Source of the DNA: a virus
Strand: one strand, 5' to 3'
UHGV virus genome: UHGV-1520234
Length of the DNA stretch: 32,223 bases
Positions 12,823 through 32,223 of the stretch are shown piece by piece. The notes beneath the pieces were generated by a model. It ran no database searches. It saw only the letters and a program-made list of their open reading frames with translations, and had not been told where the DNA came from. Both the position numbers and the translations under genes were made by a program. Numbering within the stretch: the first letter of the stretch is position 1; each line of letters begins with the position of its first letter.

Positions 12823-12825
12823 AGC

Positions 12826-14885: not shown

Positions 14886-14898
14886 CGGGTCATCCTTA

Positions 14899-14919
14899 AT
14901 GGCCCCGCCAAGGGGCCAT
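14899..14919 (-). other. GC-rich stem-loop immediately downstream of the major capsid gene
   Basis: Perfect 8-bp stem atggcccc (14899-14906) / ggggccat (14912-14919) with a 5-nt loop, about 8 nt past the capsid stop; no U-tract follows. Confidence 0.45.
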
Positions 14920-14926
14920 GTGGCTG

Positions 14927-15868: not shown

Positions 15869-15879
15869 TCGTCTGTTCC

Positions 15880-16383: not shown

Positions 16384-16387
16384 TGGA

Positions 16388-17620: not shown

Positions 17621-17634
17621 GTGTTACCTGCGAT

Positions 17635-18408
17635 TCAGGCGGGATAAGATTGGGAGGTGGGAAAAACGATTTCTTTATAACAGCGACAATTCGGGAGCTC
17701 GCCAGCGTGGCCTGTCATGCCGTCAAGCGTTGGAGGTTTGCCCCATTCGACAAATTTACCTTCCATTTCCCGATGAGAATGCCTGACGTCACCATCTTCG
17801 GCTGTACGCCAGATATAACCATTCGAACCAATTGACAGCGCACGCGCCTGATCCAGCGCGCCGGTTGCACGTCCAAGTTCAGTACGGGCAATCAGGTCAG
17901 CTCTGGACTTTGCTATATCACCCGATGCGGCTATTTCTTTAGCAAAATATTCTGCTCTCCCACCGGTCACAACAGCTTCTGTCGCCCGATTCTGGATGTC
18001 GTACACCCTGTCAGCCGCCTCGAGGGGGAGCGATTTGATGTACTTGACCTGTTCGGCGATGATGGATTGCATCACCTGGCCCACAGGAGCGCTTTCCACA
18101 AGATTGCGGAGCTCGCGACTGATGTTCTTGCTGTGTTGCCGCCAAACTTTCTCGTTCTGCCGGGTTAGGTCCGCAGTAAAGTTTTCCGCGACCTTTGTCG
18201 CCCAGGGGGTGATGATTTCACTGTAGCGTTCCAGCGCCTCAATAATTTCCGTGATACTGTCATTTGAACCATCGTAGCGACCATTTACGATGTCTCCGAC
18301 CGCCCGCGCTATCTGCCGTAGGCTCGTTCGATATCGGATCTCCGCCTGGCGGCTCTGGCGGTTTGTCGTCAAGTTCGCCGATGCCTGGCGGCGCTTCGTC
18401 TTCGGCAT
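17635..18408 (-). CDS. Head morphogenesis protein (Mu F / SPP1 gp7 family)
   Basis: 257-aa ORF; ATG at 18408 with GAGGA upstream; C-terminal motifs (NGYIWRTAEDGDVRHSH...PNCRCY) resemble Mu F-like proteins. Its start lies 148 nt inside the portal gene in another frame. Confidence 0.6.
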   Translation of the reverse strand: MPKTKRRQASANLTTNRQSRQAEIRYRTSLRQIARAVGDIVNGRYDGSNDSITEIIEALERYSEIITPWATKVAENFTADLTRQNEKVWRQHSKNISRELRNLVESAPVGQVMQSIIAEQVKYIKSLPLEAADRVYDIQNRATEAVVTGGRAEYFAKEIAASGDIAKSRADLIARTELGRATGALDQARALSIGSNGYIWRTAEDGDVRHSHREMEGKFVEWGKPPTLDGMTGHAGELPNCRCYKEIVFPTSQSYPA

Positions 18409-19726
18409 TCTCGATATCCTCGTCGGTAATAGATGCCCCGATGCCGGTTACGTCAGAATTTTCGCGCAAATCAGTCATAGCGGCTTTCAGTGTCATCAGA
18501 CCATCACCCAGCGCCGTACTGATTGCGTTGGTAGTGTTTAACGCCACCGTTGAGCGATCGACATCAGACATTTGCCAGAGCGGGTTAAACTCAAACGTGA
18601 AATCGTCCGGCAGCGGCTTGCCAAGCTCCGAACGATGCATGATGTCCAGTATCCGCCGCACCGGAAGACGTAAACGCCTCTCCTGTAACGAGCTTACCCG
18701 GTCGTAATAGTTGGCAAGGTCTGCATCGCCGGTAGAAAATCCTTTCGGGGACTGTCCGAACAACCGCACCAGTGGGATACCAACAGCGCCACTAATCTGC
18801 TCAGCGAACTGCGAAAGGATGTCATCCAGACCACTGAAGCTGTACTGATGGGTTTCAAACTTATCCCGCGAGTCCATGAGCGTCATGCCTTCATTGCTCT
18901 GGAACTGTCGAATCAGGTCGATATTCTTCAGCAACGCTTCATACGCAGGACCACCAAGTGCGATAAGCTCGCGTAGCTTCTCCACGCTGTAGGTACGCAA
19001 ATGCGCCTTGTAGACCAGCTGCGCCGCGCCGACAGTAGCGCTGTCGAACGCGGTAAGACGATCCCAGATACGCTCTACAACCGACATTCCCCATTCGTTC
19101 TCGGTCATCTTCTGCTGGAATGGCAGCGTGACGCCATCAAAGCGAATCAGACGACTGTGATGAATGCGCCAGGCAGGAATTCCCGTTGCTGTGGTCACCA
19201 CATCGTAAAACTCAGGTTTACCCAGGTCCGGCCCCATATCTTTAATGCGGCGGGTCAGCACTGGGTTAATCATCCAGCGGTCGAGCGGGAGAATGCCCTT
19301 AAACTTGCCTTCTCCAATGGTTTCGGGTCGCAGCGGGGTCATTGGTGCCTGCCCCTCAATCATGATGAAACCCACCGCGCCGCCGTAGAGACGCGACCAT
19401 TTCAGCACGTCGTTCAGCGCATCCCAGATTTGCAACTCATCCAGTTGTGATTCGAGAATGCCGCGATCTTTTGCATCAATTTCCGAAGTGATGCGAATGC
19501 CTTTGCGGGTCATATCATCCGGGATAGCATCGACCGCTTCGCCGATGATCCAGGACGAACGATAGGACCATTCCACCAGCATGCGGTTGCGACTGGTGAA
19601 GTTAGCCCGGTAGGTCGATGCTGAGTGCTGGTTAGGCGTCTGCATTCCCACGCGGGCGACAAAGTTCTCATAGCCATCAGCGGTGGCCTGCGCAGTTCTC
19701 CGCAGGGCTTGTTTGTTTCGTGCCAT
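18260..19726 (-). CDS. Portal protein
   Basis: 488-aa ORF immediately downstream of the large terminase (ATGA overlap), with an acidic C-terminal tail. Confidence 0.7.
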   Translation of the reverse strand: MARNKQALRRTAQATADGYENFVARVGMQTPNQHSASTYRANFTSRNRMLVEWSYRSSWIIGEAVDAIPDDMTRKGIRITSEIDAKDRGILESQLDELQIWDALNDVLKWSRLYGGAVGFIMIEGQAPMTPLRPETIGEGKFKGILPLDRWMINPVLTRRIKDMGPDLGKPEFYDVVTTATGIPAWRIHHSRLIRFDGVTLPFQQKMTENEWGMSVVERIWDRLTAFDSATVGAAQLVYKAHLRTYSVEKLRELIALGGPAYEALLKNIDLIRQFQSNEGMTLMDSRDKFETHQYSFSGLDDILSQFAEQISGAVGIPLVRLFGQSPKGFSTGDADLANYYDRVSSLQERRLRLPVRRILDIMHRSELGKPLPDDFTFEFNPLWQMSDVDRSTVALNTTNAISTALGDGLMTLKAAMTDLRENSDVTGIGASITDEDIENAEDEAPPGIGELDDKPPEPPGGDPISNEPTADSAGGRRHRKWSLRWFK

Positions 19727-21348
19727 CAGGCCTGTCTCCCTAGCAGCTCCCAGATGTTCAGGGCTGAATTCATTGGCGCGTAGCTGATCATCACCGAGTC
19801 GGCAAGGTTTGGCGACCGGGTTCCATCAGGCTGTTTATCAATAACGATTTTTCCCACACCATTAATGGAATAGGTCGGCTGCGAAAGCTCGATGATGAGT
19901 TTATCTTTGAGTGCCATGCCACTGCTGATTGAGATGATTTCGTCCGGGTTGTAAGCCATACCTTCAATCACGGCGCGCCAGGTATTCTGAAAAAGTTTAC
20001 GTAACCGCCACCAGCTCTGGGCTTTGGCGTTAGCGAAGAAGTCCTTGTTCAGACGTGCGGCTTGCCCGTTGTCACCGCGCACCGCTTCGTCGTCCGGATC
20101 AAACACCGCGCCGCTACCGCGAAACGGTGTAGCGAGTATTGACGGTCGACGCGCAGCGTTACGCTGTTCGTTGATAGCGCGTGCATCGCCGCGAACGCCA
20201 GCGCCCAGCCCGTCCTCATCAAAGCGAAACTCTTCGAGGTTGTCCTGTTCGCAAAAACCGAAGACCTTCTCGACGGACTGATAAATGTCGCTGCCCACAC
20301 CGGACCATTCCCGCACATTCTCCAGGAGGAAGCCATGACGGGTGGAAAAGGCATTTTTGTCCCTGCCTTCGTCGGCGACATCCATCGCGCCAAGTCGTTT
20401 GCCTGTTGGCTGGATCCCCAGTTTGATATGTGCATCAACGGCAGCCTGTACCCATTCGGATGGAATCAGGACGCCTTCCGCTGATGCGCTGTAGTTCAGG
20501 TCAAGTTCCTGTGCCACCACCACCGGATTATCGATTTTCTCGCATTCCCTGCGATACCACTCTTCATCCTTGCGAGGATCATCCCGCCAGTGGAATGTGA
20601 ATACCGGTATCTTCCCGCCATGACGCTTCTGAGCGAACGGGTTCGCCATGCCGTTAACTGAACTCAGGTCGATACGGCAACGCGTCGTTTGTGACAACGC
20701 CGCATCAATCAGCAAAGGACGCTGAAGGAATGCAGCCTCATCAACCAGATAAAGCGTGGTACGGTCACCACGACCAATATTATCGCCAGCCTCGCCTTTG
20801 ATAACGGCACCAGTTTCAGGAAACTCAACACGCATATATGGCGCGTGCTTCTTCTCGCTCCACGAACCGCGAAACTCTACAGGTAGCGTTTCCACGAACT
20901 TGCGCGCCTTCCAGAACAACGCTTTCGGGTCACCAGTGCTGTCGACGTATTCCTCTTTACGGGAGCCGAAACCGATAACCATTTCTTTGTTGAAGAGACA
21001 AAGCGAGCAGGCCAGTCCGATCGCGGTCCAACTGAGCCCCATTTCACGGGATTTTTCGGTAATACCATTCTCCCGATTACCCCAGCGTTCCATAATCCAG
21101 TGGATCCACTCCTCCTGCTTAGGGAAGAGTAAAAACGGAATGGTCACCGGCAGGCCATAATCAATATTACGCGGGTCCGTTGTCATGCCCCAGTCGATGA
21201 TGAACTGAGCCGGGTTGGTCCGGTAAAACTGCTTCAATACGGGCAATATTTCAGGATTCTGGCGAATGCGCTGTAGGCGTTCCATCCGCCATTCAAAAAC
21301 TATCTGGTAATCAGGATGTTTAAAATCGAAGGGGAATGGTAACGGCAT
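19726..21348 (-). CDS. Terminase large subunit
   Basis: 540-aa ORF with an ATG start following the small terminase; contains a Walker B-like LYLVDEAAF and a nuclease-like C-terminal half. Confidence 0.75.
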
Positions 21349-21350
21349 AC

Positions 21351-21902
21351 TTAGCCCATCATTTTTCTATACGCCTCTGCAGCCTGCTCCGGAGTTAAGT
21401 TGGTAATTTCTGTTCTGACTGGTCCTCCATCAGCGCCAGTCACTTCATTTTTGACGTTGTCTTTAAACGCCTGAACAGAAACATGACGCCCAAGCAACTC
21501 AAGGTTTTTAACCTTATCAGGCCATTTGATTTTCTTCAGGAGTGCGGCGCTATCTGCGGATACCATCTCCACGACATCCATTCCCGATAACGTTGTGCGC
21601 CATACCTTAGGCCAGTCTTTAATGGGTTTTAGCTCACCGTTTTGCAGGAGAATGTCAAGCACATCCATCTGGTCGATTTCAATAAGGCGATTAAGTACAT
21701 ATTCTGCATTAATACCAACAAGATCATTGCGTTGCGCTTTCAGTTCGGCGATTCTTAACTTGATGTCAGGTTTTGACAGGTTTTCGGATGCGGTACGGTT
21801 AGCTGTCTTTGCGCTGTACCCCGCCCGAATAGCCGCTTGCGTGGCGTTTAAATCGATGAGGTACTCGCGACAGAACATTTCTTGCTTGTCGGTGAGTGCC
21901 AT
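21351..21902 (-). CDS. Terminase small subunit
   Basis: 183-aa ORF with N-terminal [22 protein letters not shown], a recognisable small-terminase DNA-binding motif; directly upstream of the large terminase. Confidence 0.7.
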
Positions 21903-21926
21903 AGTTTTCTCTAGAGGGTTTCTTTA

Positions 21927-22163
21927 ATGAACTCAAAGCAAATTTTTTACCGAAATACAGGTCATGATAATGAAACTTATATATTCCTGGACAAATTGGA
22001 CAATGGCTCCTACCAAGTCAGGGTTGGTCATTCGTCGCCTGTGAGCCATTTTGAATGGGAGGGTGATGAAACCATTCAGACAGTGGAAGAGTTTCTAGGT
22101 TCTAACCCATCATATACTGAACGTGTTCATCAACTAATTTCTGAGTTTGAAGCAGAATCGTAA
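21927..22163 (+). CDS. Hypothetical small acidic protein, antisense to the late operon (moron candidate)
   Basis: 78-aa ORF, ATG at 21927 with GAGGG 8 nt upstream; AT-rich with rare codons (ATA, AGG, CTA, CGA); divergent from terS with 24 bp between the start codons. Confidence 0.4.
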   Translation: MNSKQIFYRNTGHDNETYIFLDKLDNGSYQVRVGHSSPVSHFEWEGDETIQTVEEFLGSNPSYTERVHQLISEFEAES

Positions 22164-22458
22164 TCACCACCCAAGCGACTCAACTGATATCTAGTTCATC
22201 ATTACTAGGACTAAAAGTAGATTCCTGACATTGAGGGACCTCTTTATCCGCTTGTGGGGATATCAGTTAAGTTATCCCGTGTAGGGTATAAGCCATTGTC
22301 GAGACCACTCATTGAATGGTCTCTGCAATAACCGATGTCTTTCCATCAGTCCGCCACCACAAAGAATCTTTTTTGCCATAATGCAGGAGGTTCATCTTTC
22401 AGTGGCTGCCAGTGTTATTTCCCCACTTACTGGCTTGGGTTGTTTCGCTGTACTGCCG

Positions 22459-23001
22459 TTAATTAGTGAGTCCGGGGATTACGGTTTGCCCGTGCTGTTC
22501 AAGGCGTTCAATTCTCGCCAGTAGCTGAGGCTTCTTAATTTTTCCCCAGCGATTAAGCAGGCGCCCTGACATGCTGGCAACATCCTTCTCTTTCATGTAC
22601 TCCAGCATTACGGCATTTCTCTCTTCTTCAAATTGACGATGACCAACCTGAAGCATGGCGTACATCCAGTTAAATGCGTTGATGTAAGCAATTTTGATAC
22701 GCATTGCTTCTTTTTTGGTGTAGGACATAACCAAAAGCATCAACCCATCCTTGCGGAGACGGTAGAATTTTTGCGGCTTACCATTCTGTAACTCATTGTT
22801 TTTATAGCAAAGCTCAAAGTTGAGCTTTGTATCAAACTCAGGAGGGCAAGCTTCTATGGTTCGTTCAATGTCACGAACCACGTTCTTCGGCAGCTTTCCA
22901 AATGCTTTTGCCACCATAAAAGAATCTGTAACCGGATCGTTGTTTGCTACAAAAATTAGGTCTCTGAAATCTATATCGTTAACAACGGTTGGGTAGTTCA
23001 T
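22459..23001 (-). CDS. rha: Rha-family phage regulatory protein
   Basis: 180-aa ORF with an ATG start; N-terminal region (VAKAFGKLPKNVVRDIERTIEACPPEF...NFELCYKNN...YRLRKDGLMLLVMSYTKKEAMRIKIAYINAFN) matches the Rha-domain pattern. Located between lysis genes and terminase, as rha is in P22. Confidence 0.55.
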   Translation of the reverse strand: MNYPTVVNDIDFRDLIFVANNDPVTDSFMVAKAFGKLPKNVVRDIERTIEACPPEFDTKLNFELCYKNNELQNGKPQKFYRLRKDGLMLLVMSYTKKEAMRIKIAYINAFNWMYAMLQVGHRQFEEERNAVMLEYMKEKDVASMSGRLLNRWGKIKKPQLLARIERLEQHGQTVIPGLTN

Positions 23002-23149
23002 TGCGTCTTTACCTTTTAGAAAGATGAGCCTGTTCGCACAGAAAAGCCGTCCCCGAGATGGTCGCCACCATATACGGCAATTCTCAGGCTCAGCTTTCTG
23101 AAAGACTCGGGATTGTTACGCGCTGCGATGCGCGGTTTACTGCAGATGC

Positions 23150-23173
23150 AAAAAAGCCCCGCAAATGCGAGGC
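23150..23173 (-). terminator. Terminator-like hairpin between Rz and rha
   Basis: On the minus strand GCCUCG...CGGGGC (one G-U wobble) followed by UUUUUU (plus A-tract 23150-23155). Confidence 0.4.
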
Positions 23174-23347
23174 TAAATCCTGGTATTTGTAATGACTGGC
23201 TCTTATCTCAACGCAGCCCCTTACCGCGCGCCAGATGCTCAATATCAAGCATCAGCAATGAGATGTTTAATCTGGATTCACTCCAGAAGTGATCACCACC
23301 CTGTCTACAGAGCCAGATGTGAAGGATGATGAGTAAAATTATCGCTA

Positions 23348-23806
23348 TCATCGAAGGCATTGCGTCCTGATGTATTCCTGCAGGTAGTTAACCTGCGCGG
23401 TTATCCTGTCGATTCCACTTCGGAGACGGTAATAATTGAGTTCAGCATCTGCTGTAAGTCTTGGGCTTTCTCCATCGCCCATGCTGCTGGCTCCGGTCGT
23501 TGACTTTGCACAGGTGGCGGCGACTTGCAGGCGCTTACGCCCAGCAGAAACATCAGCACGAAGACTTTCGATAGTCGCGTTAGCATCAGCAAGCTCCTTT
23601 GTGTATCTGGCGTCGAGTTCTGCTACATCACGCTGACGCATCTGCATGTCAGTAATTGCCACGTTCGCCAGCTTCAGTTCTCTGGCATTTTTGTCGCGCT
23701 GGGCTTTGTAGGTAATGGCGTTATCACGGTAATGATTAACAGCCCATGACAGGCAGACGATGATGCAGATAACCAGAGCGGAGATAATCGCGGTGACTCT
23801 GCTCAT
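23348..23806 (-). CDS. Rz: Rz i-spanin
   Basis: 152-aa ORF with an ATG start and 4-nt overlap with R; the N-terminal ~95 aa are near-identical to lambda Rz as I recall it, while the C-terminal third diverges. Confidence 0.85.
23401..23586 (-). CDS. Rz1: Rz1 o-spanin lipoprotein, embedded out of frame within Rz
   Basis: ORF in the +1 frame wholly inside Rz; first ATG at 23586 gives [20 protein letters not shown] with lipobox VSAC followed by a proline-rich segment, the typical Rz1 architecture. Confidence 0.7.
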
Positions 23807-24279
23807 ACCTCAATCTCTCTGACCGTTCCGCCAGCTTCTTTGAATTTTGCAATCAGGCTGTCAGCCTTATGCTCGAACTGACCATAACCAGCGCCCGGAA
23901 GAGAAGCCCAGATATTGCTACAACGGTCGATAGCCTGACGGATATCACCGCGATCAATCATCGGCAAAGCGCCACGCTCTTTAATCTGTTGCAATGCCAC
24001 AGCGTCCTGGCTTTTCGGAGAGAAGTCTTTCAGGCCAAGCTGCTTACGATAGGCATCCCACCAACGGGAAAGAAGCTGGTAACGTCCGGCAGCTGTTGAT
24101 TTGAGTTTGGGGTTTAGCGTGACAAGTTTGCGAGGGTGATCGGAGTAATCAGTGAATAGCTCTCCGCCAACAATGACGTCATAACCATGATTTCTGGTTT
24201 TCTGTCGTCCGTTATCAGTTCCCTCTGACCACGCCAGCATATCGAGGAACGCCTTACGTTGATTATTGATTTCCACCAT
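23803..24279 (-). CDS. R: Endolysin R (lytic transglycosylase, lambda R-like)
   Basis: 158-aa ORF with an ATG start, overlapping S by 17 nt as in lambda; sequence essentially matches lambda R as recalled. Confidence 0.9.
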
Positions 24280-24586
24280 CTTCTACTCCGGCTTTTTTAG
24301 CAGCGAAGCGTTTGATAAGCGAACCAATCGAGTCAGTACCGATGTAGCCGATGAACACGCTCGTTATATAAGCGAGATTGCTACTTAGTCCTGCGAAGTC
24401 GAGAAGGTCACGAATGAACCAGGCGATAATGGCGCACATCGTTGCGTCGATTACTGTTTTTGTAAACGCACCGCCATTATATCTGCCGCGAAGGTACGCC
24501 ATTGCAAACGCAAGGATTGCCCCGATGCCTTGTTCCTTTGCCGCGAGAATGGCGGCTAACAGGTCATGTTTTTCTGGCATCTTCAT
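24263..24586 (-). CDS. S: Holin S with dual start (S107 antiholin / S105 holin)
   Basis: 107-aa ORF beginning [10 protein letters not shown]; ATG codons at 24586 and 24580 reproduce the lambda Met1-Lys2-Met3 dual-start motif; near-identical to lambda S. Confidence 0.9.
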
Positions 24587-24705
24587 GTCTTACCCCCAAT
24601 AAGGGGATTTGCTCTATTTAATTAGGAATAAGGTCGATTACTGATAGAACAAATCCAGGCTACTGTGTTTAGTAATCAGATTTGTTCGTGACCGATATGC
24701 ACGGG

Positions 24706-24741
24706 CAAAACGGCATGAGGTTGTTAGCGCAACCTCTTGCC
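24706..24741 (-). other. Stem-loop upstream of S
   Basis: Imperfect inverted repeat ggcatgaggttg / caacctcttgcc with a U-run following on the minus strand; lies in the stretch that matches the lambda sequence just upstream of S. Confidence 0.4.
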
Positions 24742-24884
24742 ACCCGCTTTCACGAAGCCAGCCATTGAGCTGGTTTTCTTTTATGCAAAGCACACCGCAC
24801 CGTAGCCACAGCGGATAAGGTGATTATTTTTGTCTGTCTGGTATTTGGTTTGATGTGCTTTCAGAAAGGCCGTGCTTAAAACGC

Positions 24885-24912
24885 AAAAAGCCCCGAGCTA
24901 TTAACTCAGGGC
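24885..24912 (-). terminator. tR'-like intrinsic terminator ending a short PR' leader
   Basis: Minus-strand transcript GCCCUGAG-UUAAUAG-CUCGGGGC followed by UUUUUG; about 60 nt downstream of the predicted PR' start. Confidence 0.55.
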
Positions 24913-24948
24913 TTTATTTAACGAGTGCATTTATCCATCGTTGAGTCA

Positions 24949-24977
24949 AATTTACCCAATTTTATTCAATAAGTCAA
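24949..24977 (-). promoter_or_regulatory. Late promoter PR' with qut region
   Basis: Minus strand reads TTGACTTATTGAATAAAATTGGGTAAATTTGACTCAACGATGG: -35 TTGACT (24977..24972), 17-bp spacer, -10 TAAATT (24954..24949). This matches lambda PR' as recalled; sequence then diverges from lambda downstream of about +10. Confidence 0.7.
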
Positions 24978-25019
24978 TATCATGCCGTTAATATGTTGCC
25001 ATCCGTGGCAATCATGCTG

Positions 25020-25643
25020 CTAACGTGTGACCGCGTTCAAAATGTTGTCTGCGATTGACTCTTCTTTGTGGCATTGCACCACCAGAGCGTCATACAGCGG
25101 CTTAACAGTGCGTGACCAGGTGGGTTGGGTGAGGTTTGGGATTAGCATCGTTACAGCGCGATATGCGGCGCTTGCTGGCATTCTTGAATAGCCGACACCT
25201 TTGCATCTTCCGCACTCTTTCTCAACAACTCTCCCCCACTGCTCTGTTTTGGCTATATCAACCGCACGGCCTGTACCGTGGCAATCTCTGCATCTTGCGC
25301 CCGGCGTCGCGGCACTACGGCAATAATCCGCATAAGCGAATGTTGCGAGCACTTGCAGTACCTTTGCCTTAGTATTTCCTTCAAGCTTTGCAACGCCACG
25401 GTATTTCCCCGATACCTTGTGTGCAAATTGCATCAGATAGTTGATAGCCTTTTGTTTGTCGTTCTGGCTGAGTTCATGCTTACCGCAGAATGCAGCCATT
25501 CCGAATCCGGCTTGTGATTGCGCCATCCCCATAGCAGCCATCACATCAGTACCGGAAAGAGAGTCAGAAGCCGTAGCCCGTGGTGAGTCGCTCATCATCG
25601 GGCTTTTTGGCGAATGAAATTTAGCTACGCTTTCGAGTCTCAC
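25020..25643 (-). CDS. Q: Late antiterminator Q (lambda Q-like)
   Basis: 207-aa ORF, essentially the lambda Q sequence as recalled; the start codon here is GTG, overlapping the ninI stop (GTGA). Confidence 0.9.
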
Positions 25644-26305
25644 GCGCCTTCTCCCTGTACCTGAATCAATGTGAGATTTCCGCAGAACACTGCGCCGGTA
25701 TCGATATACATCTGGTTGGCAAATTTGAGTGGTTTCACTGCTGGCGTGTGACCAAAGATGAACGTGTCCGCGCCTTTAATTTCTTTCACGATCCCGATTT
25801 GTGAGTTGCTGATTCGTTCGCGGTTCCAGATTACCTGCTGATGATCAACTGGCTTTCCAAATTCGTATTCTTCACAAGGATAATCGGCGTGGCAGATGAC
25901 ATGTTTTTTACCTTTGCTCACCAGTTCGATGATTAACGGAAGTTCTTCTGCTTTATGGGCAAGAGCTTTAGCCAGAATTTCTTTGTCGTAATCGAGATTA
26001 AAGAACCAGCCACCGCCATTAAGCAGCCAGTGATTAACGTTTCCACGCTCTGATAAGCCATCAATCATCATTTGCTCATGGTTTCCACGTACAGCTCTGA
26101 ACCAGGGGAATGTGATTAATTCCATACATTCGACGTTCTCTGTACCGCGATCAACCAAATCGCCAACCGAGATAAGCAGGTCTTTTTTGGTGTCGAATCC
26201 TATCGTCTCCAGTTTTTTCATCATGTTCGTGTAGCATCCGTGCAGATCGCCAACTACCCAAACATTTCGGTATTTGCTGCCATCAATTCTTTCGTAATAG
26301 CGCAT
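25640..26305 (-). CDS. ninI: Ser/Thr protein phosphatase (lambda NinI-like)
   Basis: Track ORF begins at a TTG at 26380; the homologous start is ATG at 26305 ([25 protein letters not shown]...) with GGAG upstream, giving 221 aa. Metallophosphatase motifs GDLHG, GDLVDRG and GNHE are present. Confidence 0.85.
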
Positions 26306-26489
26306 CTCTTTCACTCCATCCGCGATGAACCATAAGAACGTCGTTGACGATGGCGTGCATTTTCCCGTCTTTATCATCAACGTATTTTCTGACCGTGCCG
26401 CGACTACATTTCAGTCTGCGTGCTACTTCTGTCTGGTTTCCGTATGCTTCAACAAGCATGTCTGGAATGGTTTTTACTGAGAACGTCAT
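26283..26489 (-). CDS. ninH: NinH
   Basis: 68-aa ORF with ATGA overlap to the ninG stop; same length and position as lambda NinH. Confidence 0.75.
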
Positions 26490-27097
26490 GCGGCCTCACT
26501 TCTGCTATTTCGCAGGTCTTTGAGTTTCTTCTGATACTCCGCCTTGATGGCCATGCACTCTTCGACAGTCCAACGATGGCGGCTATGGTTTGATTCGATT
26601 TCGTCTACTGCTTCCTGCCCGATGCGGCTAATCAGTTCGACGCGATACGGAACGAGATTTCCGCTTTTGTGCTGGTTGCACACCACGCATTGCTTGTGAA
26701 TATTGCGTTCATCAAATCGGAGTTGAGGTGCCGCAGCAGTTGTCCGGTAATGTCCGGCATCCCACTGAGCAGACGTGAGCGTTCCGCACGAGATACATGG
26801 TAAGTCGCGGTCTCTTTCTCTGATGAAAGCGTTTACGGCTTGTTGGGCTTGTTTAATCCAGTAACTGCGGGGCTTTAAGGCGAGTTTTCGAATCTTAAGT
26901 TTATCTTTCTGTTTCTGCTCCTCTCGTCTTCGTTTCTTCTCTGCTGCTTTTTCCGCTTTTTCGCGTTCTTTACTTCGTCGTTCGAGTGCTATCTTGGTTC
27001 CACACTCTGGAGAGCACCACCACTGATTAGCGAATGCAGGGTGAAACCATTCCCGACATTCATCGTTTTTACATCGTCTTCGCGCTGGTTTAGCCAT
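26486..27097 (-). CDS. ninG: NinG recombination protein (Rap-like)
   Basis: 203-aa ORF with an ATG start overlapping the ninF stop; cysteine-rich (CxxC pairs), matching lambda NinG in size and position. Confidence 0.8.
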
Positions 27098-27266
27098 CGT
27101 CTTCTTCCTCGTACATTGAGCTATTCGGATCGCTCATCAGTTCTGCGCAGCAGTGCTCACACACGTGAACTTCCAGCACATGCAGCTTCTGGCCGCAGTT
27201 AGCGCACGTTAAAGCCCGCTCGACGCTTTCTTTCTGGTATTGAAGGGATTGGGATGGGCTAAGCAT
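27090..27266 (-). CDS. ninF: NinF (58 aa, not in the ORF track)
   Basis: Translated by hand: [58 protein letters not shown]; ATG at 27266 overlaps the upstream stop (TAATG). Confidence 0.65.
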
Positions 27267-27625
27267 TATTGGATTCTCTGCATCATGAGAAAGACAATCA
27301 TGGCGGCGCGGAGGGGATTTTCATGTATAGCTCGCTTAGATTTACAGTAGGCCACACCGCGTGCACCCCACTCGTCTTCATCGAGATTGATAATGCTAAT
27401 CCTGTATTTTTCAATAATCGGCCATGCGTCTGCTGGGTTTGCGCATGGGTTAAAGGATCCGCGCTCAACTTCTACTTCAACTGCGTCTCCGTTTACAACG
27501 TCTCCCTCAAATGAGACAAACACCATATCGCCATTCTCACCTTCTTTGTAATCCGGTGATCCGTTATGAATGGCTTCGAATACCGCCACGTTAATTTCAA
27601 AATCACTTAACTGTGAATAATCCAT
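27266..27625 (-). CDS. Hypothetical acidic protein inserted between ninE and ninF
   Basis: Track ORF begins at a GTG at 27667; ATG candidates at 27631 and 27625 (MDYSQLSDFEINVAV...), the latter with GAGGA 8 nt upstream. Canonical lambda has no gene between ninE and ninF. Confidence 0.5.
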   Translation of the reverse strand: MDYSQLSDFEINVAVFEAIHNGSPDYKEGENGDMVFVSFEGDVVNGDAVEVEVERGSFNPCANPADAWPIIEKYRISIINLDEDEWGARGVAYCKSKRAIHENPLRAAMIVFLMMQRIQ

Positions 27626-27627
27626 TG

Positions 27628-27804
27628 TCATTTCCTCGCACGATGTCTTAGCCACCGGATATCCCACAGGTGAGCCGTGTAGTTGAAGGTTTTTACGTCA
27701 GATTCTTTTGGGATTGGCTTGCGTTTATTTCTGGAGCGTTTCGTTGGAAGGTATTTGCAGTTTTCACAGATTATGTCGGTGATACTTCGTCGCTGTCTCG
27801 CCAC
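27628..27804 (-). CDS. ninE: NinE-like protein (about 58 aa, not in the ORF track)
   Basis: Hand translation from a GTG at 27804: [57 protein letters not shown]; AGGAGG lies only 3 nt upstream, so the exact start is uncertain. Confidence 0.5.
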
Positions 27805-27944
27805 ACGTCCTCCTTTTCCTGCGGTAGTGGTAACACCCCTGTTGGTGTTCTTTCACACCGGAGACACCATCTATTCCAGTAAGGTTGGTTTGGTCGGAAG
27901 CGGTTATCTTCTTTGCATTCACCGCACCGATAACATCGCATCAT
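27771..27944 (-). CDS. ninD: NinD-like small zinc-finger protein (57 aa, not in the ORF track)
   Basis: Hand translation: [57 protein letters not shown]; ATG overlaps the ninC stop (ATGA); two CxxC pairs. Confidence 0.55.
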
Positions 27945-28813
27945 GCAGCCTCCCTCCCGAAGTCGAAATCAAGCTGCCCTCCAAATATTTCGCATGACTC
28001 AGAACAAGAGCCGGTATCGAATCTTTTAGCTCGTACCATGTCCTGATACAGGGCTTGATAATCATTTTCTGAATACATTTTCGCGATACCGTCCAGCGAC
28101 ATTCTTCCTCGGTACATAATCTCCTTTGGCGTTTCCCGATGTCCGTCACGCACATGCGATCCCGTGATGACCTCATTAAAAACACGCTGCAATCCCTCCT
28201 CATCTTTGCAGGCAAGTCCGATTTTTTGCGTTGATTTTTTAATGCAGAATATGCAGTTACCGAGATGTTCCGGTATTTGCAAATCGAATGGTTGTTGCTT
28301 CCACCATGCGAGGATATCTTCCTTCTCAAAGTCTGACAGTTCAGCAAGATATCTGATTCCAGGCTTTGGCTTTAGCCGCTTCGGTTCATCAGCTCTGATG
28401 CCAATCCACGTGGTGTAATTCCCTCGCCCGAAATGGTCATCACAGTATTTGGTGAAGGGAACGAGTTTTAATCTGTCAGTGCAGAACGCGCCGCCGACGT
28501 ATGGAGTGCCATATTTCTTTACCATATCGATAAATGGCTTCAGAACAGGCAGTCGCGTCTGAATATCCTTTGGTTCCCATACCGTATAACCATTTGGCTG
28601 CCCAAGCTCTGGGTTGATATCAACCTGCAATACGGTGAGCGGTATATCCCAGAACTTCACAACTTCCCTGACAAACCGATATGTCATTGGATGTTCACAA
28701 CCTGTATCCATGAAAACGTAATGCACGTCTTCACCTGCCCGTCGCTTTTGCTCCATTAGCCAGAGCAAATATGCTGACGTCCTGCCACCGGAGAAACTAA
28801 CGACATTTATCAT
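27941..28813 (-). CDS. ninC: NinC (PAPS reductase-like family)
   Basis: Track ORF extends upstream to 28873; the ATG at 28813 ([18 protein letters not shown]...) overlaps the ninB stop and gives 290 aa, the lambda NinC length. SFSGG P-loop-like motif typical of the PAPS reductase/ATP-PPase fold. Confidence 0.8.
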
Positions 28814-29250
28814 GCAGCCCTGTCTCCCCATCGCGCTTTCCACTCCAGAGCCAGTCGCGCTTCGTCTGACCACTTAACGCCACGCTCTGTACCGAATGCC
28901 TGTATAAGCTCTAATAGCTCCGCAAATTCGCTTACACGCATCCTGCTGGTTGACTGGCCTATTACCACAAAGCCATTCCCGGCAAGGTTAGGAACAACAT
29001 CCTGCTGCTTTAATGCTGCGGTAAACACACACTTCCAGCTTTCTGCATCCAGCCAGCGACCATGCCATTCAACCTGACGAGAGACGTCACCTAAGCAGGC
29101 CCATAGCTTCCTGTTTTGGTCTAAGCTGCGGTTGCGTTCCTGAATGGTTACTACGATTGGTTTGGTTGGGTCTGGAAGAATTTGCTGTACTGCGTGAATA
29201 GCGTTTTGCTGATGTGCTGGAGATCGAATTTCAAAGGTTAGTTTTTTCAT
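28810..29250 (-). CDS. ninB: NinB recombination protein (Orf family)
   Basis: Track ORF begins at a TTG at 29268; ATG at 29250 (MKKLTFEIRSPAHQQ...) with a G-rich RBS gives 146 aa, the lambda NinB length. Confidence 0.8.
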   Translation of the reverse strand: MKKLTFEIRSPAHQQNAIHAVQQILPDPTKPIVVTIQERNRSLDQNRKLWACLGDVSRQVEWHGRWLDAESWKCVFTAALKQQDVVPNLAGNGFVVIGQSTSRMRVSEFAELLELIQAFGTERGVKWSDEARLALEWKARWGDRAA

Positions 29251-29270
29251 GACTTCCCTCTCCCCCAAAT

Positions 29271-29298
29271 AAAAAGGCCTGCGATTACCAGCAGGCCT
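29271..29298 (-). terminator. tR2-like intrinsic terminator between the replication genes and the nin region
   Basis: Perfect 8-bp stem aggcctgc (29275-29282) / gcaggcct (29291-29298) with an 8-nt loop; on the minus strand it is followed by UUUUUAUUUG. Confidence 0.55.
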
Positions 29299-29327
29299 GT
29301 TATTAGCTCAGTGATGTAGATGGTCAT

Positions 29328-31208
29328 TTAATACTCCGTCACGTTTTCCTGTCGCCACGCCTCGTCATATTCCGATTTCGGCATATTGGCGATGTAGCTA
29401 TATGGCGATCCTGATTCAAGTTGCAGGAACTGGTGCGATTGCTCGTCAAGGAACAACGGGACACCACCTTCCCAACCTTCGCCGTTACGTTGTTTTTCAA
29501 GCATCAAAACAGATGCCGGAGATGCCAGTAGCTGTTCGTCCTTCTCTGACATCTTTTCACCACTCTGAACTCTCTGTAACGCTCTCTCGCGAGCCTTGTT
29601 ACGCCAGATGATGAAAAGGTTGTCTGTCAGGTCTGTTATCGCTCCAGAGCCTTTTACGTCCATTTTCCCGGTTGGTTTTTCTTCGCTGTCTCCTTTTCGC
29701 GAGTGAGTAACGAGAATGACGTGGGAGTTTGTTTTGTTTTTGAAGTCGCAAATCGAGTCAACAAACGCCTTCTGCCCGTTATAGTCATCGTCGCCTATGC
29801 CACATTTCATCAGGCTGTCGATGATGAATAACTGGATCCCGTATCGGCGGCGAGCGTAGTCGAATATTTCGATCAGCCTGTCGGCTTTCGCCGTTCCGGT
29901 CAGGCCAAACACCCAAAGTCTTTCGTCATAAAATTTAAATGCAGAGTCAATTTCCAGCACTGGCGGAATCTTGCAGCACGTCGCCTGACGGGTAAGGCGC
30001 TTAAGGAGAATACCAGGCTTCAGCTCAAGTGACGCGATGCACGTCTTCACACCCTGACGCATTGCCTCAAGTGCCATATGCCCGACAACCTCCGTTTTTC
30101 CGTGACCGTTCACACCATTGACCAGCGTCAACTCTGCCTCACGGAACTGGAATTTATCTGCCAGAGATTCCCACGGTGGATTAAACAGATACTGCTGCTT
30201 GCCGTAGAAAGCGTTGATAGTGTCCTGGTAAAACTCTCGCGCGCTGTAGAGTTCTTCAGGATCGAAGTAGGATGCCGTGCCGATGTACTGCCAGATTTCA
30301 TCCTCGGTAACACCGTTCATCAGGCATTCGTTGATGTCTTTGTACGGCAGAGTAACAAGACGGCAACGATGTTCACCGAGTCGGCTTGCGATTTCCCTTG
30401 CGGCTTCACGACCAACATCATCAACGTCCATCGAGATGAATATTTCCTCAAACCTGTCGAGGTTGTGATACTCAAACTCAATCCACTGCTGCTTAGCGCC
30501 TTTCCCGCCACCAAACGGCACGGATAACGCCGAGATGCCGTATTGCGCATAGCTCATACAATCAATTTCGCCTTCGCAAAGTACAACCGCCCTCACGCCA
30601 GCGTCCAGAGCCTGCCATCCGAACAGACAAGGTTCGCAATCACCTTCTGCCATAATGACTTTCTTCCCGTCCGGGCGCTCAGTGCTGATTCGCTTGACCT
30701 GCAACAACTCACCATCGCGTTTGTACGGAAGCACCAGAGCATCCAGTTCTCGTTCTCCATTCCACACCTTGCCGCTGACAACCTCGTAGCGCTTTACGAC
30801 TTCTGGCGATATGCCACGCGATTGCAGGTACTCAAGATGGGATTCTGTTCTGGTAACGTAGCGGGCGATTTTCTTGCGATCAGGCCTGGAGAATTTCTTC
30901 TCACGTCTGGCATCGAAATGGTGATCGTCATCCTTGATACCGAGAAATGCTTTCGCTTCCTGCATAGCCTGATGCAGGTTAATTCCACGACATGCCATCC
31001 ACAAATCAAGCATGTCACCGCCGTCTCCCTCAGCGAAATCAGCCCATTTTTTCTTGCCGCTAAGGTTGACCTTAAGGCTGTTTCCCTTGTCACCGTTGAC
31101 GTTACCGGCAACCCACTCATGCCCCTCTTTCTTGCCGTTTGGCAACAGGTGCGGAGCCACCCTGTCAACCTGCGCCCAAAGCAGGTCACTGAGTTCACTT
31201 GGCGTCAT
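29328..31208 (-). CDS. Bifunctional DNA primase / replicative helicase (Toprim N-terminal, DnaB-like C-terminal)
   Basis: 626-aa ORF with an ATG start; central acidic Toprim-like segment (VVLCEGEIDCMSYAQ) and a C-terminal Walker A (GVNGHGKTE) with a Walker B-like LFIIDS. Confidence 0.75.
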   Translation of the reverse strand: MTPSELSDLLWAQVDRVAPHLLPNGKKEGHEWVAGNVNGDKGNSLKVNLSGKKKWADFAEGDGGDMLDLWMACRGINLHQAMQEAKAFLGIKDDDHHFDARREKKFSRPDRKKIARYVTRTESHLEYLQSRGISPEVVKRYEVVSGKVWNGERELDALVLPYKRDGELLQVKRISTERPDGKKVIMAEGDCEPCLFGWQALDAGVRAVVLCEGEIDCMSYAQYGISALSVPFGGGKGAKQQWIEFEYHNLDRFEEIFISMDVDDVGREAAREIASRLGEHRCRLVTLPYKDINECLMNGVTEDEIWQYIGTASYFDPEELYSAREFYQDTINAFYGKQQYLFNPPWESLADKFQFREAELTLVNGVNGHGKTEVVGHMALEAMRQGVKTCIASLELKPGILLKRLTRQATCCKIPPVLEIDSAFKFYDERLWVFGLTGTAKADRLIEIFDYARRRYGIQLFIIDSLMKCGIGDDDYNGQKAFVDSICDFKNKTNSHVILVTHSRKGDSEEKPTGKMDVKGSGAITDLTDNLFIIWRNKARERALQRVQSGEKMSEKDEQLLASPASVLMLEKQRNGEGWEGGVPLFLDEQSHQFLQLESGSPYSYIANMPKSEYDEAWRQENVTEY

Positions 31209-31312
31209 GATTCCCTCAGATTGAGATTTTTAAACCAGAAATCGACAAACGAAATACTTAACCAGCCGTGGTTATAACCAGCGACCAGTAGCGATTTGAT
31301 TTTTGATTTCAT
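31205..31312 (-). CDS. Small coupled ORF between O and the primase-helicase (35 aa, not in the ORF track)
   Basis: Hand translation: MKSKIKSLLVAGYNHGWLSISFVDFWFKNLNLRES. ATG sits 3 nt after the O stop and the stop TGA overlaps the primase-helicase ATG (ATGA). Confidence 0.3.
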   Translation of the reverse strand: MKSKIKSLLVAGYNHGWLSISFVDFWFKNLNLRES

Positions 31313-31315
31313 GGT

Positions 31316-32176
31316 TCACCTGTCGAAAAACACGTAGCCAGTTTTCGATACGGTGATTGCGGATGATGGTTTGGATTGTGGTTGAATGGTTTCTGGCTTT
31401 TCGTCGTTCCAGCGCTGACCGTTCAAGTAGCTCGATGGTAACAACCTGTCGAATCCGAACTGCTTACCATTCCTGCATGCGATGTCTTCTGCCAGCATCG
31501 TGGCAAACTCGCTTGCCGTACCCCTGGTAGTTTTACGCCATTCCCTGAACTGTGTTCTGAATGCCGAAGCTGCGTTTTTTTTCCCGGCTTTCCGCATGCC
31601 TGCACACCAGAATATTTCCTCGAATGCCTTGTCGGTTTCTTCGTGACGGTCAGGTGATTTTTCACACTCCGTCCGAACACTTTCGGACATAGTGTTTTTA
31701 TTATTTCTTTTTTCTTTTGTAATAGTTTCTTTTGTGTGTCCCTGTTTTGGTGACAGCGCTGTCACCGTTTTGGTGACACTTTTTGTCACCAATGCAGTGA
31801 CATTATCACCAGAGTAGTGACACCCTTCGATTTGCCATTCCTCGATGTTCTTGTTAGGCCCGATTTGCTGGCCTTCGCGAAGGATAACCTTCATCGCGAT
31901 AAGCTCATTCTTGGCCTTGTTTACCTTCTGTCTTGGCAGCCTGGTAATTTGAGCTAACTGACTATCAGAGATGCAATCCATCTTTTTACCGTAGCCGTAT
32001 GTTTTACGGCATATGGCGTGGGCAACCTTGCTCTGATTTTTCGTTAAATCTGCGCCGATAAGCTCTTCATACAGGGCATTTGCAAGACGGGTATAACCAT
32101 CTTCAACTTCTGCCACACGACGCTCCACAGGCCGTTGTGAAGGCCTTAAATGTGTTACGGTTGCAAGATTACTCAT
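31316..32176 (-). CDS. O: Replication initiator, lambda O-like N-terminal domain
   Basis: 286-aa ORF with an ATG start and GGAGAAAGG RBS; the N-terminal ~110 aa align with lambda O as recalled (DGYxRLxNxLxExxxGADLTKxQxKV...KTYGxxKxMDxIxDSQLxxITxLP...GPNKNIxEW); iterons lie within the coding sequence. Confidence 0.75.
   Translation of the reverse strand: MSNLATVTHLRPSQRPVERRVAEVEDGYTRLANALYEELIGADLTKNQSKVAHAICRKTYGYGKKMDCISDSQLAQITRLPRQKVNKAKNELIAMKVILREGQQIGPNKNIEEWQIEGCHYSGDNVTALVTKSVTKTVTALSPKQGHTKETITKEKRNNKNTMSESVRTECEKSPDRHEETDKAFEEIFWCAGMRKAGKKNAASAFRTQFREWRKTTRGTASEFATMLAEDIACRNGKQFGFDRLLPSSYLNGQRWNDEKPETIQPQSKPSSAITVSKTGYVFFDR
31694..31735. other. AT-rich putative DNA-unwinding region of the origin
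   Basis: AT-rich stretch (tttttattatttcttttttcttttgtaatagtttcttttg) immediately on the O-downstream side of the iterons, the same order as in the lambda ori. Confidence 0.5.
31735..31825. repeat. Replication origin iterons inside the O gene
   Basis: Four spaced inverted-repeat units built on GTGACA/TGTCAC half-sites: perfect 18-bp palindrome ggtgacagcgctgtcacc (31749-31766), ggtgacactttttgtcacc (31772-31790), gtgacattatcacc (31797-31810), gtgacac (31818-31824). Confidence 0.6.
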
Positions 32177-32223
32177 GACCTTTCTCCTTCTGCATCAGCT
32201 TCACTTTTTCCAACTCAGCCCGG

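What the first reader, a model, noticed from the sequence alone, without database searches (positions are those of the whole stretch)
29328..32176. Replication module pairs a lambda O-like initiator with a primase-helicase and a 35-codon coupled ORF instead of lambda P
The initiator has a lambda O-like N-terminal domain and internal iterons, but its C-terminal domain and the downstream gene differ from lambda: a 626-aa Toprim primase fused to a DnaB-like helicase takes the place of P. A 35-codon ORF (31205-31312) is wedged between them with coupling at both ends, which argues it is translated. If real, the phage brings its own helicase and primase rather than recruiting host DnaB.
Basis: partly seen in the sequence, partly recalled or inferred. 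Interest (0 to 1): 0.4.

Follow-up and report, generated by a model that had tools for sequence, protein, structure and literature searches.

The report
Known ES18-type phage replication module
This is the already-described ES18/mEp043-type replication module of lambda-like phages, in which a lambda-O-type origin-binding protein is paired with a T7-like primase-helicase in place of lambda P; the tiny 35-codon gene between them is a real, conserved gene of unknown function.

Summary
All three genes lie on the minus strand.

- **Initiator (31316-32176, 286 aa).** It has a lambda-O N-terminal domain. Four 19-bp dyad iterons and an AT-rich stretch lie inside its own gene. Its C-terminal half is not lambda-like.
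- **Small ORF (31205-31312, 35 codons).** It starts 3 nt after the initiator stop and overlaps the next start codon as ATGA.
- **Primase-helicase (29328-31208, 626 aa).** It is a Toprim primase fused to an SF4 helicase, homologous to T7 gp4 and Twinkle.
- **No lambda P or ren homologue** is present in the window.

The module is not new. It is 98.8% identical to phages mEp043 and Sf101. Phage ES18's GenBank record already annotates gp59 (O-like, ori inside), gp60 (35 aa, unknown) and gp61 ("putative primase/helicase; similar to T7 gene 4"). In Shiga-toxin phages it is replication type "Eru5".

What I add:
- The 35-codon ORF is a real gene. It is always 35 codons and lies upstream of every enterobacterial homologue examined. 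Substitutions are mostly synonymous, and there is no conserved RNA structure.
- It is absent from Vibrio and Pseudomonas phages with related helicases, so it is a clade-specific accessory.
- A short C-terminal tail of the initiator co-varies with the helicase clade.

Its function remains unknown.

The parts
31316..32176 (-). Replication initiator, 286 aa. It has a lambda-O-type N-terminal origin-binding domain (aa ~20-114), a low-complexity linker encoded by the origin DNA, and a non-lambda helical C-terminal domain.
   Evidence: PHROG hits for the C-terminal half (phrog_33384, 270, 9474, 9327) share no family with those of the lambda O C-terminal half. The AF2 model shows helices at 179-234 but is low confidence, mean pLDDT 51.
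31737..31822 (.). Four 19-bp iterons with internal dyad symmetry (TGTCACCNNNNNRGTGACA), forming the presumed origin inside the initiator gene.
   Evidence: repeat families D1/D2 and inverted repeats I1-I6; 8 of 11 strand-matches fall in this cluster, against 0.43 expected in the whole window. The homologous region is annotated 'rep_origin, similar to lambda ori' in ES18.
31670..31736 (.). A+T-rich stretch next to the iterons, the presumed unwinding region. It contains a direct repeat TTTCTTTTGT x2.
   Evidence: GC is 0.30-0.33 in 60-nt windows. The arrangement is as in lambda ori (established knowledge).
31319..31366 (-). Last 16 codons of the initiator (SSAITVSKTGYVFFDR). This C-terminal tail motif travels with the primase-helicase clade even where the rest of the initiator differs.
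   Evidence: The same tail sits on different C-terminal domain types in L012, L014 and L015. A second tail type (S-x-G-S-A-E-V-F-I-N...) is shared by SaltyDalty, Fraca, EKP1, L016, L017 and L020, which carry the other helicase clade.
31205..31312 (-). 35-codon gene (MKSKIKSLLVAGYNHGWLSISFVDFWFKNLNLRES), equivalent to ES18 gp60 and a member of phrog_21848. It is translationally coupled on both sides.
   Evidence: phrog_21848 E 4e-26. Always 35 codons in 17 diverged sequences, mean pN/pS 0.46, codon-position entropy 3>1>2, and the only frame open in all of them. 79 of 80 IMG/VR loci are intact, and the nucleotide alleles of the major protein differ only at silent sites. No conserved RNA structure. 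AF2 predicts one helix, residues 3-34, pLDDT 81.
29328..31208 (-). 626-aa primase-helicase of the T7 gp4/Twinkle type. It has a Cys-less DnaG-zinc-ribbon-like N-domain (aa ~1-95), a Toprim primase core (aa 209-296) and an SF4 helicase (aa ~350-595).
   Evidence: T7 catalytic residues align: EGEID, DxD, KD-N, Walker A GHGKT (K371), Walker B IIDS (D464), THS (H502), KQRNG (R574). These are invariant across 6 homologues. There is no Cys in aa 1-72 (sequence).
29265..29298 (-). Intrinsic-terminator-like hairpin plus T-run directly downstream of the primase-helicase gene. It is a likely tR2 equivalent that closes the replication block before the nin region.
   Evidence: 8-bp stem with 6 G-C pairs, followed by TTTTATTT. 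It lies inside the 26-codon NinA-like ORF at 29247-29327.

Best explanation
This is the ES18/mEp043-type replication module of a mosaic lambdoid (pro)phage. It is a chain of three translationally coupled genes in the early-right operon.

1. The initiator's N-terminal lambda-O-type winged-helix domain binds four 19-bp dyad iterons that lie inside its own coding sequence. This opens the adjacent A+T-rich DNA (inferred by homology with lambda O/ori).

2. Lambda O uses its C-terminal domain to capture the P-DnaB complex. This initiator instead carries a different C-terminal domain and a short conserved tail (..TGYVFFDR). These recruit the phage's own T7 gp4-like hexameric primase-helicase (inferred from co-inheritance).

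3. The primase-helicase unwinds DNA and probably primes. The phage therefore needs neither a P/DnaC-type loader nor host DnaB. Synthesis is presumably done by host Pol III, because no polymerase gene belongs to the module.

4. The 35-aa product of the middle gene is a real, selected, single-helix protein found only in the enterobacterial branch of this module. Its most likely role is as a small accessory subunit or adaptor acting at the initiator-helicase step. That step of the model is the weakest.
For: Shown:
- Gene order, coupling geometry and iterons.
- Domain identities.
- Catalytic Toprim and SF4 motifs are conserved.
- No lambda P or ren homologue in the window.
- The lambda-like N-domain with a non-lambda C-domain.
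- Identity with annotated phage modules: mEp043/Sf101 at 98.8%; ES18 gp59/60/61 with ori; epsilon34 gp50-52; Stx-phage type Eru5.

Modularity:
- ES18 joins a lambda-identical N-domain to this C-domain, and phi24B joins an unrelated HTH N-domain to the same C-domain.
- The extreme C-terminal tail follows the helicase clade across different C-domain types.

Small ORF:
- It is present and exactly 35 codons long in all 18 intact enterobacterial genome loci. One further copy, in a degrading symbiont genome, is a pseudogene.
- It shows a coding-type substitution pattern.
- Within-population variation is silent only.
- The junction geometry varies (ATGA, TAATG, TGAnnnATG) but coupling is always kept.
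Against: - No biochemistry exists for any member. The Stx-phage paper states that nothing is known about replication proteins of these types.
- The N-terminal DnaG-like region has no cysteines. The T7 gp4 zinc ribbon is needed for primer synthesis, and metazoan Twinkle, which also lacks it, is not a primase (established knowledge). The protein may therefore be a helicase only, and host DnaG might still be required.
- Vibrio phage 1.242.O (helicase 60% identical) and Pseudomonas phages P7869 and Ostro (about 40%) have the initiator stop overlapping the helicase start, with no small ORF. The small protein cannot be a universal requirement of this helicase.
- Co-inheritance of the tail, the small ORF and the helicase could partly reflect simple physical linkage.
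- The O structural model was too poor to test the C-domain fold.
Confidence: 0.8

Rival explanations
1. The 35-codon ORF works only in cis. It would be a translated leader or relay that sets how many ribosomes pass from the initiator gene to the primase-helicase gene, possibly through nascent-peptide stalling at its stop codon, which overlaps the helicase start. The peptide itself would have no role in trans.
For: - Coupling at both ends is the most constant feature, even though the junction sequences differ.
- The C-terminal 'L-R-S/E' codons coincide with the helicase Shine-Dalgarno, GAGG or GGAG.
- Relatives in Vibrio and Pseudomonas phages couple the initiator directly to the helicase and manage without the ORF.
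- The strictly fixed length and the conserved residues 8-26 positions before the stop would fit the dimensions of the ribosome exit tunnel (inference).
Against: - Residues far from the junction are invariant at the amino-acid level while their third codon positions vary freely (K6, L9, G12, Y13, G16; V23 and F27 are nearly so). A pure spacer would not need this.
- There is no proline or other known arrest motif at the C-terminus.
- No RNA structure sequesters the helicase ribosome-binding site.
- AF2 predicts a stable single helix.
Confidence: 0.2
2. The 626-aa protein is a helicase only. Its Toprim region would be a structural relic, as in metazoan Twinkle, and primers would be made by host DnaG. 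The phage would then replace DnaB and the loader but not the primase.
For: - There is no Cys in aa 1-72, so no zinc ribbon. The Pfam CHC2 zinc-finger match is only E 0.28.
- The T7 gp4 zinc-binding domain is required for template-directed primer synthesis (established knowledge).
Against: - The Toprim acidic residues are all present and invariant in homologues down to 60% identity (EGE, DxD, D291).
- The Cys-less N-domain is itself highly conserved and matches the N-terminal part of TIGR01391 dnaG, E 1.5e-9. This argues that it keeps a function.
- Host DnaG normally needs DnaB to act (established knowledge).
Confidence: 0.25
3. The small ORF is a chance open frame or an annotation artefact in an intergenic spacer.
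For: It is not annotated by PGAP in E. coli RefSeq genomes, in mEp043 record PV340537, or in phi24B. Pfam and NCBIfam have no model for it.
Against: - It keeps the same length and frame in 17 diverged sequences, while every other frame carries stop codons in at least some of them.
- pN is lower than pS, with synonymous sites near saturation.
- 79 of 80 population samples are intact, with silent-only variation.
- It matches phrog_21848.
- The only broken copy is in a degrading symbiont genome.
Confidence: 0.03

Closest known systems
Salmonella phage ES18 genes 59-60-61. Also coliphage mEp043, Shigella phage Sf101, Salmonella phages epsilon34 (gp50-52) and g341c, and the Stx-phage replication type 'Eru5' (e.g. 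Stx2a_F403, phi24B, Min27).
   Same: The three genes are in the same order with the same coupling. The module is 98.8% identical at the DNA level to mEp043 and Sf101, and about 88% to ES18 and epsilon34. ES18's record already names the O-like initiator, the ori inside it, the 35-aa gp60 and the 'putative primase/helicase similar to T7 gene 4'.
   Different: - The N-terminal iteron-specific domain differs. ES18 and epsilon34 carry the lambda-type N-domain, and phi24B an unrelated HTH domain.
- ES18 and epsilon34 have an extra 92-aa gene (gp62/gp53) after the helicase, which is absent here.
- phi24B-type copies carry an intein in the helicase.
- The small ORF exists as two alleles that are 71% identical.
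Phage lambda O / ori / P
   Same: The N-terminal O domain is 48% identical. Four dyad iterons plus an AT-rich region lie inside the initiator gene. The position in the operon, between cII and ninB, is the same, and the downstream gene is translationally coupled.
   Different: The C-terminal domain shares no detectable similarity and no PHROG family with lambda O. There is no P and no ren. A self-contained primase-helicase replaces the loader that hijacks host DnaB.
Phage P22 gene 18 / gene 12
   Same: It is a lambdoid module in which an O-type initiator is paired with a phage-encoded DnaB-family helicase instead of a loader (phage L paper).
   Different: P22 gp12 is a plain DnaB-type helicase without a primase domain and works with host DnaG (cited). 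Here the helicase is of the T7 gp4 type with a fused Toprim domain, and a small ORF intervenes.
T7 gp4 and mitochondrial Twinkle
   Same: The Toprim plus SF4 helicase architecture and the catalytic motifs are shared.
   Different: - About 25% identity.
- The zinc ribbon has lost its cysteines, as in metazoan Twinkle.
- There is a roughly 28-aa insertion before the arginine-finger segment.
- It acts in an origin/initiator-dependent temperate-phage module, whereas T7 initiates replication from transcription-dependent origins.
Related primase-helicase modules of Vibrio phage 1.242.O and Pseudomonas phages P7869 and Ostro
   Same: An initiator gene is followed by a homologous primase-helicase (60% and about 40% identical), with NinB downstream.
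   Different: The initiator stop overlaps the helicase start directly. There is no 35-codon ORF and no detectable remnant of it in the initiator.

Membership tests
Lambda O-type replication initiators (Pfam PF04492 / TIGR01610) | N-terminal O-type DNA-binding domain scoring above the curated threshold | tested here: met
   PF04492: 127.7 bits against a cut-off of 28.7. TIGR01610: 101.2 bits against 45.5. 48% identity to lambda O aa 1-157.
Lambda O-type replication initiators (Pfam PF04492 / TIGR01610) | Origin (iterons plus AT-rich region) located inside the initiator's own gene | tested here: met
   Four 19-bp dyad iterons at 31737-31822 and a 30-33% GC stretch at 31670-31759.
Lambda O-type replication initiators (Pfam PF04492 / TIGR01610) | Lambda-type C-terminal (P-binding) domain | tested here: not met
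   No BLAST similarity beyond aa 157. No shared PHROG family between the two C-terminal halves.
Lambda P / DnaC-type helicase-loader module | A P-like loader gene downstream of the initiator | tested here: not met
   tblastn with lambda P against the whole window gives a best E of 0.42. The downstream gene is a primase-helicase.
T7 gp4 / Twinkle bifunctional primase-helicases | Toprim catalytic core with conserved acidic residues | tested here: met
   Toprim_2: 47 bits against a cut-off of 22. The EGEID, DVD and KDIN motifs align with T7 E157, D207/D209 and D237.
T7 gp4 / Twinkle bifunctional primase-helicases | SF4 (DnaB-like) RecA-fold helicase with Walker A/B, motif H3 and an arginine finger | tested here: met
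   Alignment to T7 gp4 over aa 192-539, E 4e-23. GHGKT, IIDS, THS and KQRNG are invariant in homologues. AAA_25 scores 27.2 bits against a cut-off of 27; DnaB_C scores 23.7, below its cut-off of 27.
T7 gp4 / Twinkle bifunctional primase-helicases | N-terminal Cys4 zinc ribbon | tested here: not met
   No cysteine in aa 1-72. The CHC2 zinc-finger model matches only at E 0.28. The region is nevertheless DnaG-like (TIGR01391, aa 26-143, E 1.5e-9).
T7 gp4 / Twinkle bifunctional primase-helicases | Demonstrated helicase and primase activities | not testable with these tools
   This needs purified protein. The papers I searched and read report no biochemistry for this module; one states that nothing is known about the replication proteins of these Stx-phage types.
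ES18 gp60 / phrog_21848 small protein | 35-aa protein encoded between the initiator and the primase-helicase, matching the family profile | tested here: met
   phrog_21848 E 4.4e-26 over 34 of 35 positions. 97% identical to ES18 gp60.

The most novel reading that the evidence does not exclude
The 35-aa helix protein, together with the conserved C-terminal tail of the initiator, is a previously unrecognised and essential third component of this module. It would be a minimal adaptor or loader that lets interchangeable origin-binding proteins hand a T7-like primase-helicase onto origin DNA in enterobacterial hosts. Alternatively, it would be a nascent-peptide switch that meters helicase synthesis.
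Probability: 0.3. Interest if true: 0.5.

Novelty: already known. Interest (0 to 1): 0.25.

Why it matters
This module is very common. DNA matching this region occurs in 2080 of 5426 complete E. coli genomes, and 284 of them cover at least 80% of it. It also occurs in Shiga-toxin phages such as phi24B and Min27. Even so, the papers I searched and read report no biochemistry for it.

If the phage really replicates independently of host DnaB, DnaC and possibly DnaG, that affects how prophage induction and toxin-gene amplification respond to host physiology. The conserved 35-aa gene is left out of RefSeq annotation. It is a cheap, well-defined target for a knockout that could reveal how an initiator hands over a self-loading helicase.

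As a discovery, however, the architecture has been in GenBank since the ES18 genome (paper published 2005).

Tried and rejected
1. **Conserved mRNA structure as the reason for conservation.** RNAalifold on 14 diverged junction regions gave essentially no consensus structure (-0.6 kcal/mol). Single-sequence z-scores ranged from -1.8 to +1.6. Rejected.

2. **Rosetta-stone fusion.** A 131-aa protein (P0005) joins an initiator C-terminus to the small protein. Its locus lies in a decaying prophage whose close relatives are from Arsenophonus endosymbionts. An intact relative (P0006) shows that the 'fusion' comes from a 1-nt frameshift. Rejected.

3. **Readthrough fusion.** In the window the initiator and the small ORF are in the same frame (TGA ACC ATG). 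This is not conserved elsewhere, where there are ATGA overlaps or 1-8 nt gaps in other frames. Rejected as a conserved mechanism.

4. **Small ORF as a split-off piece of longer initiators in Pseudomonas or Vibrio phages.** hhalign found nothing.

5. **Membrane peptide.** The window allele is moderately hydrophobic, but the homologues carry R, E or D in the middle of the helix. Unlikely.

6. **DNA palindrome GGTTATAACC inside the ORF.** It is not conserved; the third codon positions vary.

7. **Two large repeat proteins (P0003, P0004)** hit by the 35-aa query. The matches are to a repeated 'GWQDVxKVDFWLT' unit and I regard them as spurious.

8. **Fold of the initiator C-domain.** The AF2 model had mean pLDDT 51, so no fold search was run.

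10. **Helical periodicity of conservation.** Only marginal, about 5% of shuffles reach it.

11. **Distant genome loci L029-L043.** They match only the N-terminal DnaG-like region and belong to a different element type, an ~800-1000 aa protein. Not used.

12. **The ES18 paper** (PMC545730) is not held in the library. I cite its GenBank record instead.
Full report
**Observation**

- a 286-aa initiator at 31316-32176;
- a 35-codon ORF at 31205-31312;
- a 626-aa protein at 29328-31208.

Reading the sequence confirms the junctions. The initiator stop TGA (31318-31316) is followed by ACC and then the small-ORF ATG. AGGTGA lies just upstream of that ATG and spans the last initiator codon and the stop. 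The small-ORF stop overlaps the next start as ATGA (31208-31205), preceded by GAGGG.

A 26-codon NinA-like ORF and ninB follow. A strong terminator-like hairpin lies at 29298-29275.

**The initiator**

Pfam Phage_rep_O covers aa 20-114 (E 2.5e-37), and TIGR01610 also passes its threshold. BLASTP against lambda O gives 48% identity over aa 1-157 and nothing beyond.

The two C-terminal halves hit disjoint sets of PHROG families. The C-terminal domain is therefore a different family from lambda's, at least at HMM sensitivity.

Four 19-bp repeats with internal dyad symmetry lie inside the gene at 31737-31822. The consensus gives 11 strand-matches in the window, 8 of them in this cluster, against 0.43 expected. 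A stretch of 30-33% GC lies next to them. This is the lambda ori layout, but with a different iteron sequence.

**The 626-aa protein**

- Toprim_2, AAA_25 and DnaB_C match, as does phrog_239 'DNA primase/helicase' at E 2e-171.
- Against solved structures, the best sequence hits are T7 gp4 (E 4e-23, aa 192-539) and human Twinkle (E 7e-14).
- The Toprim acidic residues, Walker A/B, the motif-H3 histidine and the arginine-finger segment align with T7's. They are invariant in six homologues down to 60% identity.
- The N-terminal ~95 aa resemble the DnaG zinc ribbon (TIGR01391, E 1.5e-9) but contain no cysteine. Primase activity is therefore plausible but not assured.
- No lambda P or ren homologue exists anywhere in the window.

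**Is it known?**

Yes. The 3-kb region is 98.8% identical to coliphage mEp043 and Shigella phage Sf101. It is 92% identical to Salmonella phage SEN22 and about 88% to ES18, epsilon34 and g341c. DNA matching it occurs in 2080 of 5426 complete E. coli genomes.

The ES18 GenBank record annotates four things:
- gp59 'similar to phage lambda gpO';
- a rep_origin 'similar to lambda ori' inside gp59;
- gp60, 108 nt, 'function unknown';
- gp61 'putative primase/helicase; similar to phage T7 gene 4'.

The epsilon34 genome paper describes the same block. It notes that the N-terminal domain of its gp50 is 94% identical to lambda O (PMC2629481). In Shiga-toxin phages the block corresponds to replication type Eru5 (representative AP012529, one of my hits). 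That paper states that nothing is known about the proteins involved in replication of these types (PMC8951638).

**The 35-codon ORF**

It matches phrog_21848 (E 4e-26). tblastn finds it in 44 phage records at 100%, 71% and about 50% identity.

In the distant phages SaltyDalty, Fraca and EKP1, the primase-helicase is about 61% identical. An ORF of exactly 35 codons sits in the same place there, always coupled on both sides but with different junction sequences.

A scan of one genome per species returned 19 enterobacterial loci, with primase-helicase identity from 53 to 99%. They come from Shimwellia, Pseudocitrobacter, Pseudescherichia, Phaseolibacter, Rosenbergiella, Enterobacter, Pantoea and Symbiopectobacterium. 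Every one has the ORF at 35 codons. The single exception is a copy with an internal stop in a degrading symbiont genome.

Across 17 distinct nucleotide sequences:
- synonymous sites are near saturation while non-synonymous differences are lower (mean pN/pS 0.46);
- positional entropy runs third > first > second codon position;
- no other frame stays open in all of them.

Among 80 IMG/VR loci with near-identical helicases, 79 carry an intact copy; the remaining locus is cut by its contig end. The ten nucleotide alleles that encode the major protein differ at eight sites, all silent.

No conserved RNA structure explains the conservation. Invariant residues are M1, K6, L9, G12, Y13 and G16; V23, F27 and L32 are nearly invariant. 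The C-terminal L-R-(S/E) codons double as the helicase Shine-Dalgarno. AF2 on the single sequence predicts one continuous helix, residues 3-34, pLDDT 81.

The ORF is a real gene encoding a selected peptide.

**Limits on its role**

Vibrio phage 1.242.O has a primase-helicase 60% identical to this one. Pseudomonas phages P7869 and Ostro have one about 40% identical. In all three the initiator stop directly overlaps the helicase start, and there is no small ORF. Profile comparison finds no remnant of the small ORF in those initiators.

A neighbour-joining tree places the Vibrio sequence among the ORF-bearing lineages. That tree has no bootstrap support values. The small protein is thus a clade-specific accessory and not an intrinsic part of this helicase's mechanism.

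An apparent natural fusion of initiator and small protein turned out to be a frameshift in a decaying prophage.

**Modularity**

- ES18 carries a lambda-identical N-domain, and phi24B an unrelated HTH N-domain. Both are joined to the same C-terminal domain as here.
- More unexpectedly, the last ~16 residues of the initiator (..ITVSKTGYVFFDR) are kept even where the preceding C-terminal domain is of another type, as in L012, L014 and L015.
- A second tail type (..S-x-G-S-A-E-V-F-I-N..) is shared by the initiators of the other helicase clade, again across different C-domain types.

The co-inherited unit is therefore the tail, the small ORF and the primase-helicase. I infer that the tail is the helicase-recruiting peptide. 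Simple physical linkage is the alternative explanation.

**Mechanism proposed**

- The initiator binds the iterons and melts the AT-rich DNA (by homology with lambda).
- Its C-terminal part recruits the phage's own gp4-like hexamer, with the 35-aa helix as a possible adaptor (inferred).
- The enzyme unwinds and probably primes, and host Pol III synthesises DNA (inferred).

The main rivals are:
- a purely cis, translation-metering role for the small ORF (about 0.2);
- a helicase-only enzyme that still depends on host DnaG (about 0.25).

**Verdict**

- Observation: confirmed.
- Interpretation: supported.
- Novelty: already known.
- What I add: a firm comparative case that the unannotated 35-codon gene is real, a map of its phylogenetic limits, and the initiator tail motif.
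- Interest: low to moderate.

Noticed in passing
window 29247-29327 (-) and 29265-29298 (-): The 26-codon NinA-like ORF (MTIYITELITGLLVIAGLFIWGRGKS) starts directly after the primase-helicase stop. It is largely made up of a strong intrinsic-terminator-like hairpin (8-bp stem, 6 G-C pairs, then a T-run). 'NinA' may really be a tR2-type terminator and not a gene, or it may be both.
   Followed up: partly
L003 2840-5746 (phage phi24B 'P'); absent from the window: In phi24B, Min27 and Stx2a_F403-type Stx phages the same primase-helicase is 968 aa. A 342-aa intein (Hint plus LAGLIDADG homing endonuclease) is inserted in the Walker A loop after GHGK and ends ..THN|T. The gene is annotated there as 'P'.
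   Followed up: partly
window 31319-31366 (-); loci L012, L014, L015, L005-L007, L016, L017, L020: The last ~16 residues of the initiator form a conserved tail (..TGYVFF/IDR or ..AEVFIN..). This tail follows the primase-helicase clade, not the initiator's own C-terminal domain type.
   Followed up: partly
L047-L126 (IMG/VR) and L008 (epsilon34): Two alleles of the 35-aa protein, only 71% identical to each other, circulate with primase-helicases whose best matching segment is 99-100% identical. Within the major allele, all nucleotide variation is silent.
   Followed up: partly
L004 (E. coli LR-24, RefSeq), L001 (mEp043 PV340537), L003 (phi24B): The 35-codon gene is not annotated by PGAP or in several phage records, which leaves a 107-nt 'intergenic' gap. 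It is annotated in ES18, epsilon34, g341c, SaltyDalty and EKP1.
   Followed up: yes
window 31313-31318: The initiator and the small ORF are in the same reading frame, separated only by TGA ACC. UGA readthrough would give a 323-aa fusion. This arrangement is not conserved in the more distant relatives.
   Followed up: partly
hit H41 (E. coli 47-1826, NZ_CP184839) and hit H31: Some E. coli prophage copies of the module are interrupted by extra DNA, so the match splits into 2 pieces. In H41 an HNH endonuclease gene is annotated within the matched region.
   Followed up: no
window 7224-24260 versus 22257-32223: The window is a mosaic. The structural and lysis genes resemble myovirus-type coliphages (vB_EcoM-689R2, 95%) and Salmonella phage SEN34. 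The early-right region resembles Sf101 and mEp043.
   Followed up: no
L029-L043 (Alphaproteobacteria and other MAG contigs): The Cys-less DnaG-like N-domain also occurs in these contigs. There it is either a separate ~105-140-aa ORF or the N-terminus of an ~800-1000-aa protein, often next to a small ORF carrying an excisionase-like sequence motif. This is a different element type and has no 35-codon ORF.
   Followed up: no
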